In this document: positions 9,225 to 12,226 of the stretch, in pieces
How positions within the stretch are numbered: position 1 is the first letter of the stretch
How the letters are laid out: each line of letters opens with the position of its first letter
Assembly (NCBI GenBank): GCA_017654855.1
Contig: CM030333.1
Coordinates: 2,294,001 to 2,358,000 of the forward strand
Origin: Podospora anserina
Lineage: Eukaryota
Direction of reading: 5' to 3'
DNA: 64,000 bases
The notes under the pieces: model-generated
What the model was told of the DNA's origin: nothing
Seen by the model: the letters and a program-made list of their open reading frames with translations, nothing else
The model's database searches: none
Made by a program: the position numbers and the translations under genes

Positions 9225-9844
9225 ATGACCGAAGCCCGCCACCAAGTCAACTTCATCACCGGCAACGCCAACAAGCTCTCCGAGGTAAAGGCCATCCTCG
9301 AGCCCGCCATCTCCGTCACAAACCAGTCCCTCGACCTTGTCGAGATCCAAGGCACCCTCGAGGAAGTAACCATTGACAAATGCCGCCGCGCCGCCGAACT
9401 CGTCGGCGGTCCCGTCTTGGTAGAAGACACCTGCCTCTGTTTCGATGCTCTGCAGGATCTCCCAGGACCATACATCAAGTGGTTCCTGGGGTCTATCGGC
9501 CACGAAGGTCTCAACAACATGTTGCTTGCCTATGAAGACAAGGGTGCCAAAGCTGTTTGCACGTTCGGATACTCTGCCGGACCTGGACATGAGCCCATCC
9601 TTTTCCAGGGCATCACACACGGAAAGATTGTGCCCGCAAGGGGGCCAAGCAACTTTGGCTGGGATCCTATTTTTGAGTATGAGGGGAAGACGTAGGTTTA
9701 TTTTCAGAGGACGAGGAAGTGAGAAGAAGCTGACAGGATAACAGATACGCCGAGATGGACAAGGCCGAGAAGAACAAGATCTCTCACCGGAGCAGAGCTT
9801 TGGCGAAGCTCCAAGAGTGGTTCGCCAAGGAGATGACCGCGTAA
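9225..9844 (+). CDS. HAM1: Inosine triphosphate pyrophosphatase (Ham1/ITPase)
   Basis: [40 protein letters not shown], then [15 protein letters not shown] after intron about 9692-9744. Stop TAA 9842-9844. Confidence 0.95.
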
Positions 9845-10460
9845 GTCAAAATCTGAGAAATAAAAATAATCACATTGCGGACCAAACGATCAGTGCTTGA
9901 AGTGTTTTACAAAAGCTCTACATGTCTGATAAGGCCCTCTAGCATCCAAGAAGACCCGGCTGCCATCTCGATCTCTTGGACCATCTCTATTTCTATCTCC
10001 CCCTTTCCCTCCTAATACCGCCTAGCATAGCACTCTTGTTTCAAGCGCAATGTGATAAACTAGTGCTACTGAACCATGTTCGCTACCTATCTGGGCTAAA
10101 CTGGCTCATGGAGATGATATCCCTGAAATATAGCCAAGAATACCACAGCAGTATGACTACACGCTTGTCCCACTGATAACCATCAGTACGCTCCATGCCC
10201 TCGTCCTCTCCTTCCTCTCCTACCTCCTCTTCCTCCTCCACGTGGCCGCTGGTGGTGAACCGGGTACGTCGGCATCTCACCAAAAATAGTCTCAAGCGTC
10301 TTTTCGACCTTGTCCGCCACCTTTTTCCCAACGCGGAACCCTGCCCACACCACCGCTGTATCCTCCTCTGTCGTCTCGTAACCATGAAGCATCCTACAGA
10401 TCATTAGCAATCCGCACACATCTTCCCAGAACAGAAGTCTTACTCGCCCTATGTACTTCC

Positions 10461-12226
10461 CTATCCCCCCACAGGTACCGCCCCAGGAAGAAGCCTATTT
10501 CTCGTCAGCGCCCATCATCATCATCAACATCATCAACAATTTAGTCCAACCCACTTCAAAAGCTCAAACTCTTTAAAATCCCCCAAATACCCCCCACCCC
10601 TCCTATACCCCTTCAGCGCCCCATCCGGATAAGGATACCTCACCGGCACCACCCCCGCCCCCCTCTTCCCATCGCCACCATTATTACTGTTATTGTTCAT
10701 CCCCACCATCCCCAAAACCTGATAACAATCCTTAAAATGCGGATCGAAAACCAACAACCTCCCCTCCCCCGTCCCCGCCCCCCTCTCAAACCCAACAATA
10801 GTCATCGAATGCCCCAAATGCTGAAAATACAACGGCGGCAACCCCGTCAACCTCACCTTGCCCCCCTCCCCCCTCACTATCGCCTTGTCATCTGACCTAA
10901 AATACTCCTCCACCGTCCTCAGCAGCATCTCGACCGCCTTGGCGGGGGACTTGTCCTTGATCGACTGGGCAGCAAACGGGACGCCCAAGTACCTAAACAT
11001 GGCCACCGCCTCGGGGGTGCCAATGTACTTTCTCGTGTTGCGTATCCCGCCTGTTTCGGCGCGGCCCGTGGCGGAGATGTTGTTGTCCCAGGCCGTCTCG
11101 ATGTAGTCTTGGATTTGGAAGATTGTTGGGATTTGGGAGGCGAGCTTGTGGGCGTTGGGGATGGTGGTTGATTGGGGGGGTTGGGTTAGGTAGGAGCAGA
11201 GCATTTGGATGTTGCGGTAGCCGCAGAAGCCGCCTTCGCGCTTGAGCTTGGAGATGTGGTGGACGCAGGGGTGGCAGAGGTAGGCGCGGTGGGTCGAGGG
11301 GGAGGATTCGAGGAGTTGGGCTAGGACCGGGACTACGCCTGGGGGGTTTTGTTAAGTGTTTTGCGTGAATTCGAGAGCTTTGAGACTGCTTACCAGCTGT
11401 TTGGACTTGTCCCTTTTTCCGTAAAAGGTCCGCAAGCCAGTCTGGCATTCGGTCTTCGTGCGCATATCTACCGAGATGCTTCCTCTGTTCGGTTTCAATG
11501 TTAACAAGAGCTCCTTCCTTACTTAAAATGCAGACATGAACTTACACCCAACCGCGTCCCGCGCGTTTTACTCTCGGAATCGCCAGACGTCTTAGAATCA
11601 TGGCGACGCCATAGAATACGATGTGAATATGAAGAGGAACTAGGCATTTTCAGGAGTCTTTTCCACGCTGATATCGCCTTGGAGTGGCGTGTACTTGGCT
11701 CCGAGGCCTTGTGAGATGATTTTGATACTGATTCAGGAGCGTTTGATAAGGGTGATGATGATGCAGTAGGTTCTGACACGGCTGTGATAGGGTCTGGTGG
11801 AGGAGGGTGATGATCATGGACGCCGGTCTCCTCTGTAGTATGGAGTTCTAAGTGATATTCCACCTGGCTAAGAAGAAGAAATTCTCCACACCCTTCAACC
11901 GGGCACTCGACGTATCCTGGATCGTCGTCATTGCCCGTGTTGGCAGTGCCATTACTATTTGGAGAAGGGGAGGTGCCGTCTTGATCAGCAACAGCAAGAA
12001 AGGGCGGTTCTCCTTCAGCGTGCAGCGTTTCCATGTGCTTTGTCACGTTGCGCACCTGAATTAGCGGGCAGGCTCTACGGGGGTTGGGGTCGGGGTCACT
12101 TCAAAGATGGGAAGCCGGCGACAATATCATTGTGTTCTGCAAACGGAAGGGACTTACAAGCAGCATTTGATACTCGCCCTCTTTGGTCTTCCAGCCACAA
12201 AAGGGGCACTCCATTGTGTCTGCCAT
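10461..12226 (-). CDS. ZUP1/ZUFSP (Mug105)-like peptidase family C78 deubiquitinase with N-terminal zinc-finger-like motifs
   Basis: MADTMECPFCG…HMETLH, ECPVEGCGE…YHLELH; catalytic GGFCGYRNIQML (Cys), YFQHLGHSMTIVG (His), LLVFDP (Asp); YIGTPEA. About 4 introns, the last 10495-10554. First stop TAG 10461-10463; see findings for the extension to 10183. Confidence 0.85.

What the first reader, a model, noticed from the sequence alone, without database searches (positions are those of the whole stretch)
10183..10554. C78 deubiquitinase: a 51-nt symmetric exon with two TAGs, then an intron and an in-frame RGG-rich exon
Seen (minus strand): intron 10495-10554, then exon 10444-10494 = G CTT CTT CCT GGG GCG GTA CCT GTG GGG GGA TAG GGA AGT ACA TAG GGC GA. 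A canonical 50-nt intron 10394-10443 (GTAAGA…GCTAAT…TAG) follows, downstream of the stop. The next exon stays in frame: MLHGYETTEEDTAVVWAGFRVGKKVADKVEKTLETIFGEMPTYPVHHQRPRGGGRGGRRGRRGRGHGAY*. Inference: the RGG tail (RNA-binding or nucleolar-type) is reachable either by editing both UAGs to Trp or by skipping the 51-nt exon. Frame kept across an intron after the stop argues for selection, though chance alone would give this about one time in three.
Basis: partly seen in the sequence, partly recalled or inferred. Interest (0 to 1): 0.75.

Follow-up and report, generated by a model that had tools for sequence, protein, structure and literature searches.

The report
Spliced 3'UTR intron behind a deubiquitinase gene
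The small intron after the stop codon of this Podospora deubiquitinase gene is real and spliced, but the arginine-glycine "tail" behind it looks like untranslated sequence built on a simple repeat, so the locus is largely ordinary.

Summary
The window is Podospora (anserina complex) DNA. The minus-strand gene 12226..10461 encodes a zinc-finger/Peptidase_C78 protein of the ZUFSP/Mug105 type. Intron 10394-10443 is really spliced: RNA contigs of 2 of 4 runs carry the 50-nt GT-AG joint. The same 2 runs also carry a 54-nt GC-AG joint from a donor 4 nt upstream, and 3 runs hold unspliced contigs. Intron 10495-10554 sits at a position conserved across Pezizomycotina and yields the family's usual C-terminus (K-L-L-P...), so the stop is TAG 10463-10461. 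No contig showed its joint. No exon-skip joint and no A>G at 10462 or 10450 appeared. The tail ORF has one relative among 1.84 billion representatives, a 97%-identical Podospora-type ORF. Its RGG part is a degenerate (AGG)n microsatellite. A published transcript model ends about 46 nt before its stop codon. Only codons 1-47 look coding-like. Verdict: a real 3'UTR intron behind a mis-annotated terminal exon. The tail is probably untranslated; editing or skipping is untested in sexual tissue.

The parts
12158..12226 (-). Exon 1 of the C78 gene; ATG at 12226-12224
   Evidence: Joint 12037>12158 in 4 of 4 runs. Matches the N-terminus of P0004.
12038..12157 (-). Intron, 120 nt, GT-AG
   Evidence: Joint in 4 of 4 RNA runs; intron ends.
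11546..12037 (-). Exon 2 (zinc-finger-like N-terminal region)
11485..11545 (-). Intron, 61 nt, GT-AG
   Evidence: Joint in 4 of 4 runs.
11394..11484 (-). Exon 3
11339..11393 (-). Intron, 55 nt, GT-AG (cut +1)
   Evidence: Joint in 4 of 4 runs.
10555..11338 (-). Exon 4: Peptidase_C78 catalytic domain, ending ...FELL + AA of a split Lys codon
   Evidence: Pfam PF07910, E 1.9e-47. ZUFSP and Mug105 structures matched.
10495..10554 (-). The finding's first intron: 60 nt, GTGGGT...GCTGAC...TAG, phase 2, holding an (ATG/TGA)-type microsatellite. It sits at a conserved position. No joint was seen in contigs, and unspliced contigs cross it.
   Evidence: Same split codon followed by GT or GC in L001-L006 and L009. 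88 of 118 homologue models continue x-L. Contigs X2 rec14 and X4 rec17 cross it unspliced. Repeat.
10461..10494 (-). Terminal coding piece (K)LLPGAVPVGG plus stop TAG 10463-10461
   Evidence: Resembles the [KR]-L-x-P ends of homologues.
10444..10460 (-). 3'UTR piece with the second TAG (10451-10449); the GC donor variant ends it at 10448
10394..10443 (-). 3'UTR intron, 50 nt GT-AG. Alternative 54-nt GC-AG form is 10394-10447. It is also retained.
   Evidence: Joints in X2 (depth 7 and 8.9) and X10 (68.8 and 57.5). Unspliced contigs in X2, X10 and X4. Intron ends.
10183..10392 (-). 69-codon 'tail' ORF plus TGA. Codons 1-47 are coding-like with a predicted helix 9-38. Codons 48-69 are the RGG part.
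10199..10239 (.). Degenerate (CCT)n on + = (AGG)n on -, a microsatellite that underlies the RGG run. The published transcript end maps to about 10231-10233.
   Evidence: TRF: period 3, 13.7 copies. Table S1 of PMC9801653, mapped by me from UTR sizes.

Best explanation
The tail is 3'UTR, not a coding exon. The ZUFSP-type C78 gene ends with a tiny terminal exon (K)LLPGAVPVGG-TAG, reached through an ancient phase-2 intron (10495-10554). Podospora annotations read through this intron and give ...KWVGLNC. Seventeen nt behind that stop lies a genuine short 3'UTR intron. It is spliced from two donors 4 nt apart (GT 10443, GC 10447) to one acceptor (10394), and it is also partly retained. The ORF behind it is confined to the Podospora anserina group, and its RGG part is an (AGG)n simple repeat read in one frame. 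Its in-frame relation to the C78 frame through two TAGs is a 1-in-3 coincidence. Inferred, not shown: the intron is neutral or regulatory. For correctly spliced mRNA the junction is 13-17 nt behind the stop, too close to mark it for EJC-dependent decay. For intron-1-retaining mRNA (stop TGA 10535-10533) it lies 89 nt behind the stop, so it could flag those transcripts for nonsense-mediated decay.
For: Shown:
- The 50-nt and 54-nt joints occur in 2 of 4 RNA runs, and unspliced contigs in 3.
- The three upstream introns are spliced in 4 of 4 runs, so the runs are RNA.
- All 7 metagenome loci that reach the C-terminus, of 9 fetched (4 distinct sequences), split the same K/R codon with GT or GC. 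After an acceptor they continue with L-x-P-type ends.
- 88 of 118 homologue models continue x-L.
- The tail ORF has 1 relative (97% identity) among 1.84e9 representatives and the same single one in the 5.8e9 set. JGI metagenome contigs gave none.
- No NCBI-annotated protein of six Podospora species carries the tail.
- RGG is an (AGG)n repeat.
- 2 of 3 sense frames are open.
- The 54-nt isoform, at similar depth, breaks the frame relation.
- PMC9801653 Table S1 gives one transcript with a 302-nt 3'UTR ending near window 10231, inside the ORF. Table S2 lists the gene under IR only.
- Passages of the same paper report 344 P. anserina genes with 3'UTR introns and expect NMD to act on them.
- Passages of PMC7746235 say 3'UTR introns can trigger NMD in Neurospora.
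Against: - No contig showed the intron-1 joint, and three contigs cross intron 1 unspliced. All six annotated Podospora models read through it. The true stop may therefore be the TGA at 10535-10533 in most mRNAs.
- Codons 1-47 of the tail score 0.42 on a codon log-odds. Coding chunks average 0.25 +/- 0.26. Only 0.8% of non-ORF windows and 5% of stop-free ones reach 0.42, and the other two frames score -0.39 and -0.48. That is more coding-like than expected for UTR.
- RNA contigs run on continuously to 9745, past the published transcript end.
- The NMD role is pure inference.
Confidence: 0.6

Rival explanations
1. The annotated model is right for Podospora. Intron 10495-10554 is no longer used, the protein ends ...KWVGLNC at TGA 10535-10533, and the whole 51-nt segment is UTR. 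Intron 10394-10443 then lies 89 nt behind the stop.
For: Unspliced contigs cross the intron in X2 (rec14) and X4 (rec17), and partly in X10 (rec9), and no joint is listed in 4 runs. Six Podospora annotations end KWVGLNC or KWVGPNC.
Against: The splice signals are canonical (GTGGGT, GCTGAC, TAG). The position is conserved and the spliced product fits the family's [KR]-L-x-P end, while KWVGLNC fits nothing. RNA contig cover stops at 10563-10585 in all runs, so a spliced branch could have been lost in assembly (my inference). The L-to-P change in P0130 inside the read-through peptide suggests no constraint.
Confidence: 0.15
2. The tail is a young, separately translated small protein of 69 aa (a helix plus an RG-rich end). 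It starts at ATG 10392, one nt behind the acceptor. It would be made either from the 3' part of the C78 mRNA or from a short transcript starting near 10585, for which intron 10394-10443 would be a 5'UTR intron.
For: Codon score and GC by codon position of codons 1-47 fit coding sequence. The 51-nt segment holds no ATG, so in spliced RNA ATG 10392 is the first ATG after the repeat uORF. Contigs of three runs end at 10563-10585. A 97%-identical ORF is kept open in a relative.
Against: It has no relatives beyond near-identical kin and is annotated in no Podospora species. The published transcript is one unit with the C78 gene and ends before the ORF's stop. The only two known substitutions are both amino-acid changing. 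The AF2 model is poor (pLDDT 61). The codon-score p-value is only about 0.05 among stop-free windows.
Confidence: 0.12
3. One reading: in sexual tissue both UAGs are edited to UGG by the ADAT-type A-to-I system. With the 50-nt splice this adds a 76-residue extension (helix plus RGG) to the deubiquitinase.
For: Both sites are UAG, so U is at -1, the preferred context. Stop-loss and double-UAG editing are known in Sordariomycetes (abstract and passages of PMC11156358; abstract of PMC4817773; passages of PMC13123824). The frame is open to 10183. The tail start is coding-like.
Against: No T>C at 10462 or 10450 in contigs of the 3 runs that cover them, though stage is unknown and rare variants are dropped. 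Neither A is in a hairpin loop in the MFE fold of the mature RNA. It needs intron 1 spliced, two edits and the GT rather than the GC donor. The S. macrospora orthologue id is absent from the one held supplement of PMC5381528. The tail is not conserved.
Confidence: 0.06
4. Skipping of the 51-nt segment (one 161-nt intron, 10554-10394) makes a C78-RGG fusion isoform.
For: The frame arithmetic works, and donor GTGGGT and acceptor TAG are both functional-looking.
Against: No such joint in 4 runs. Table S2 of PMC9801653 lists the gene under IR only, not ES.
Confidence: 0.03

Closest known systems
ZUFSP/ZUP1 (human) and Mug105 (S. pombe), Peptidase_C78 deubiquitinases
   Same: The C78 domain matches PF07910 (E 1.9e-47) and PDB chains 7oje, 6ei1, 6fge (ZUFSP) and 7oiy (Mug105). 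The CGYRN and GHS motifs align.
   Different: Fungal architecture with a short N-terminal Cys/His region and a Gly/Asn-rich insert. No activity data. The finding concerns its 3' end, not its catalysis.
3'UTR introns of filamentous fungi (344 genes in P. anserina; the NMD-triggering 3'UTR introns of N. crassa, Zhang and Sachs 2015)
   Same: A short canonical intron behind the stop codon, spliced and partly retained. The class is described in passages of PMC9801653 and PMC7746235.
   Different: It lies only 13-17 nt behind the conserved stop, so it is unlikely to trigger EJC-type decay unless the upstream intron is retained (89 nt). It uses tandem GT/GC donors 4 nt apart. NMD sensitivity is untested. 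I saw Zhang and Sachs only as a citation.
Fungal A-to-I stop-loss and premature-stop-correcting editing (PUK1 tandem UAGs, DBF2 stop-loss in Fusarium graminearum)
   Same: UAG stops followed by an open frame. Two UAGs recall PUK1 (abstract of PMC4817773; PMC11156358; PMC13123824).
   Different: No edited base was seen here and there is no hairpin-loop context. The extension would have to cross an intron, and editing in Podospora itself is only assumed (passage of the 2024.12.09.627484 preprint).

Membership tests
Peptidase C78, ZUFSP/Mug105 type | C78 domain above Pfam's gathering score | tested here: met
   161.9 bits against a cut-off of 29.1.
Peptidase C78, ZUFSP/Mug105 type | Catalytic Cys, His and Asp motifs | tested here: met
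   GGFCGYRN, GHSMTIVG and LLVFDP align with ZUFSP chain 7oje. Which residues are catalytic is recalled, not computed.
Peptidase C78, ZUFSP/Mug105 type | Deubiquitinase activity and linkage preference | not testable with these tools
3'UTR intron | Lies downstream of the stop codon | tested here: met
   Downstream of both candidate stops, TAG 10463-10461 and TGA 10535-10533.
3'UTR intron | Spliced in RNA on the gene's strand | tested here: met
   CT..AC joints on the + strand (GT..AG on the - strand) in X2 and X10; none in X1 or X4.
NMD-triggering 3'UTR intron (EJC rule) | Junction about 50 nt or more behind the stop (the rule is recalled) | tested here: inconclusive
   13-17 nt behind the TAG (not met); 89 nt behind the TGA of the intron-1-retaining form (met).
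NMD-triggering 3'UTR intron (EJC rule) | Transcript stabilised without UPF1 or EJC | not testable with these tools
   Needs mutants.
Fungal A-to-I stop-loss/PSC editing site | U at -1 (UAG) | tested here: met
   Both sites are TAG.
Fungal A-to-I stop-loss/PSC editing site | Edited A in a hairpin loop | tested here: not met
   In MFE folds of +/-30 nt of the mature RNA, A 10462 sits in a linker between hairpins and A 10450 in a 1-nt bulge. This is a preference, not a requirement.
Fungal A-to-I stop-loss/PSC editing site | A>G in sexual-stage RNA but not in DNA | tested here: inconclusive
   No T>C at 10462 or 10450 in contigs of X2, X4 and X10. Stage is unknown and contigs drop rare variants.
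Cassette (skipped) exon | Joint from the upstream donor to the downstream acceptor | tested here: not met
   No 10555>10393 joint in 4 runs. The gene is listed only as IR in Table S2 of PMC9801653.
RGG/RG-motif protein tail | Clustered RGG/RG repeats in a translated protein | tested here: inconclusive
   The RGGGRGGRRGRRGRG run exists in the ORF, but it is an (AGG)n repeat and there is no evidence of translation.

The most novel reading that the evidence does not exclude
During sexual development the C78 mRNA, spliced at intron 1 and at the GT donor of the 3'UTR intron, has both UAGs edited to UGG. The ZUFSP-type deubiquitinase thereby gains a Podospora-specific 76-residue extension: an amphipathic helix plus an RG-rich end. 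This would be a stop-loss extension that spans an exon junction, with the GT/GC donor choice acting as a frame switch that allows or forbids it.
Probability: 0.06. Interest if true: 0.6.

Novelty: new member of a known kind. Interest (0 to 1): 0.25.

Why it matters
There are three practical gains. First, the terminal exon of this deubiquitinase is probably mis-annotated in all Podospora genomes, and in some relatives with a GC donor. Second, the locus is a clean example of a 3'UTR intron with tandem GT/GC donors. Third, the geometry suggests a testable idea: a 3'UTR intron placed just behind the stop could police retention of the preceding intron through NMD. If the tail were translated after double UAG editing, it would be the first stop-loss extension crossing a splice junction. 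Present evidence makes that unlikely.

Tried and rejected
- No RNA holder is listed as RNA on record. The four runs I laid are labelled 'RNA?'; I treat them as RNA only because their contigs carry the three upstream splice joints.
- There is no contig joint for intron 10495-10554, and there is almost no contig cover over 10586-10840 in all four runs. I do not use either as evidence. The stretch is G-rich on the RNA strand, and a spliced branch ending in a cover gap may be clipped in assembly. My attempt to estimate retention from mean contig depths gave anything from about 6% to 65% and was dropped.
- No tail relatives turned up in JGI metagenome contigs: 598 pattern matches, 0 confirmed.
- The ESM Atlas gave a best score of 0.79, below its lead threshold.
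- Rfam gave only one match, at E 0.67 and 19 bits against a gathering score of 80.
- AF2 on the tail gave pLDDT 61.4 with one helix at 9-38. That is not informative, so I did no fold search.
- 'Pa_2_5440' and 'SMAC_04511' occur in no main text. SMAC_04511 is also absent from the one held supplement of PMC5381528.
- The resemblance between the C. samala model end (KWDSSW...ETGGGTSEEDG) and this window's other frame (ASSW...YETTEEDT) could not be tested without that DNA. I left it as likely chance.
- An alternative 56-nt donor (GTTGGA at 10550) plus the 54-nt intron would join the C78 frame to the tail. No joint supports it.

Full report
**What the window is**

The best protein relatives of the minus-strand gene are uncharacterised proteins of Podospora pseudopauciseta, P. 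comata, P. anserina and their sister species. Identity is 98% over the catalytic exon. This is therefore fungal DNA of the P. anserina species complex. All four RNA runs laid differ from the window at only two places, 10287 and 11836. One of these matches the P. anserina S-type protein, which has A where the window has T in ...HT(T/A)EETG.

**The gene**

RNA contigs give three upstream introns in 4 of 4 runs: 12038-12157, 11485-11545 and 11339-11393. The large exon 10555-11338 holds a Peptidase_C78 domain (PF07910, E 1.9e-47). Its nearest solved relatives are ZUFSP (7oje, 6ei1, 6fge) and S. pombe Mug105 (7oiy).

**The observation**

Every coordinate in the finding is right:
- 10554-10495 is a 60-nt GTGGGT...GCTGAC...TAG unit.
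- 10494-10444 is 51 nt with TAGs at 10463-10461 and 10451-10449.
- 10443-10394 is a 50-nt GTAAGA...GCTAAT...TAG unit.
- 10392-10183 is a 69-codon ORF plus TGA, in frame with the C78 frame once both units are removed.

**Is intron 10495-10554 real?**

Evidence for:
- Among the 120 best homologue models, 118 hold the ...YRRG..YL..EFE.L motif. Of these, 88 continue with x-L, often [KR]-L-x-P. Nine end within one residue. The other 21 mostly look like read-through of a donor.
- Nine fungal loci came back from metagenome contigs, and seven reach this point (L001-L003, L004/L005, L006, L009; four distinct sequences). All split the same Lys/Arg codon after its second base.
- Their donors are GTAAGT, GTACGC, GTAAGC or, in L001-L003, GCAAGT. 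After a branch-site-like CTRAY and an AG they continue with L-T-P-P-P, L-R-V-P or L-S-P-P-A-E-G-F-P-P.
- The window's spliced product, K-L-L-P-G-A-V-P-V-G-G-stop, fits this pattern. The annotated Podospora end, K-W-V-G-L-N-C, does not.

Evidence against:
- None of the four runs has a contig with this joint.
- Contigs X2 rec14 (10447-10563) and X4 rec17 (9745-10585) cross the intron unspliced.
- Contig cover ends at 10563-10585 and resumes at 10771-10880 in all runs, so the missing joint cannot be weighed.

I conclude, at about 0.7, that the intron is used and that the stop is TAG 10463-10461.

**Is intron 10394-10443 real?**

Yes. X2 and X10 each hold a contig with the 50-nt joint, which is GT..AG on the minus strand (depths 7 and 68.8). 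Each also holds a contig with a 54-nt joint that reads GC..AG when shifted by one, with its donor at 10447 (depths 8.9 and 57.5). Unspliced contigs exist in X2, X10 and X4. The intron thus lies in the 3'UTR, uses tandem donors 4 nt apart, and is partly retained. The 54-nt form puts the tail out of frame with the C78 frame.

**Skipping and editing**

- No 10555>10393 joint is listed in any of the four runs.
- The only letter differences listed are at 10287 and 11836, so there is none at 10462 or 10450.
- Contigs drop rare variants and the stage of the samples is unknown. This is weak evidence against skipping or editing.
- MFE folds of +/-30 nt of the mature RNA place A 10462 in a linker and A 10450 in a one-base bulge. 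Neither is in a hairpin loop, the context fungal editing prefers (preference from PMC11156358).

**The tail ORF**

Evidence against coding:
- HMMER against 1.84 billion representatives finds one true relative, P0124. It is a 73-aa ORF from an assembled public run, 97% identical, with K24Q and I36L.
- The word-indexed search of 5.8 billion proteins finds the same single protein.
- JGI metagenome contigs give none.
- None of the six annotated Podospora proteins in the cluster carries the tail.
- The RGG run coincides with a degenerate period-3 repeat: CCT on the + strand, 13.7 copies. That repeat also explains why the neighbouring frame reads EEEEEVGEEGEDEG.
- Two of three sense frames are open here, for 69 and 97 codons. 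Shuffles give 69 or more codons in about 3% per frame.

Evidence for coding:
- Codons 1-47 have GC by codon position of 0.62/0.36/0.66, close to long ORFs of the window at 0.62/0.44/0.64.
- Their codon log-odds is 0.42, against -0.39 and -0.48 for the other frames.
- Only 0.8% of windows outside ORFs of 100 aa or more reach 0.42, and 5% of stop-free ones.

This last signal is the one result that keeps a coding reading alive.

**Published transcript data**

Table S1 of Lelandais et al. 2022 (PMC9801653; I read supplementary rows and the header) gives Pa_2_5440 a single transcript with a 371-nt 5'UTR and a 302-nt 3'UTR. Counted from the annotated TGA (10535-10533), that ends near window 10231, inside the repeat and about 46 nt before the tail's stop. 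The mapping from UTR sizes is mine. It agrees within 2 nt with the neighbour Pa_2_5430's end. Table S2 lists the gene once, as intron retention. Passages of the main text report 344 genes with 3'UTR introns and expect NMD to act on them. The RNA contigs nevertheless run on to 9745, where they join the convergent gene, so the true 3' end is not settled.

**Mechanism**

The splicing pattern is shown. The rest is inferred:
- With the conserved stop, the exon junction lies 13-17 nt downstream. That is too close for an EJC to survive a terminating ribosome (the rule is recalled).
- With intron 1 retained, the stop is 89 nt upstream of the junction. The 3'UTR intron could then mark intron-1-retaining transcripts for decay.
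- This fits the known role of 3'UTR introns in Neurospora (passage of PMC7746235; Zhang and Sachs 2015 seen only as a citation). It is untested here.

**Verdict**

The locus is a new example of a known kind, a fungal 3'UTR intron, with a likely annotation error as a by-product.

Noticed in passing
window 10495-10554 (minus strand); P0004, P0126-P0130: All annotated Podospora models of this gene end ...FELLKWVGLNC (KWVGPNC in one species). That is read-through of a conserved phase-2 intron, so the family-typical end K-L-L-P... is missed.
   Followed up: yes
L001:940-1100, L002, L003; P0008, P0009: A Schizothecium-like fungus in metagenome contigs has a GC-AG intron (CG|GCAAGT...GCTAAC...CAG) at the same conserved site, giving R-L-S-P-P-A-E-G-F-P-P-I-S. 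The annotated relatives P0008 and P0009 read through it instead.
   Followed up: partly
window 10581-10870 (minus strand): The coding stretch is very G-rich on the RNA strand, with runs of 4-7 G that encode Gly-rich loops of the C78 domain. RNA contigs of all four runs have little or no cover here. G-quadruplex formation or a technical loss are both possible; neither was tested.
   Followed up: no
window 10513-10539: A (CAT)n/(ATG)n-type microsatellite lies inside the terminal intron. If the intron is retained it gives a run of TGA stops in the C78 frame and a small MMLMMMMGADEK ORF in another frame.
   Followed up: partly
window 10287 and 11836: These are the only two differences between the window and the contigs of all four RNA runs. 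10287 would change Ile36 to Leu in the tail ORF, the same change as in P0124. 11836 changes Thr to Ala in exon 2. The window is therefore a different strain or sister species from the RNA runs.
   Followed up: partly
window 9745 and below (+ strand gene ending TAA 9842-9844): A convergent gene, Pa_2_5430 by the order in Table S1 of PMC9801653, has a splice junction at 9745; the loose ends are identical in 4 runs. Its contigs are continuous with the C78 3' region up to 10393, so the two 3' ends abut or overlap. Its family was not tested.
   Followed up: no
P0128 (older P. anserina S mat+ model, 463 aa): The older model lacks exon 1 and reads into intron 11485-11545 (...TRLGVSSCLHFK-YAHED...). 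The RNA joints support the newer 485-aa type structure.
   Followed up: partly
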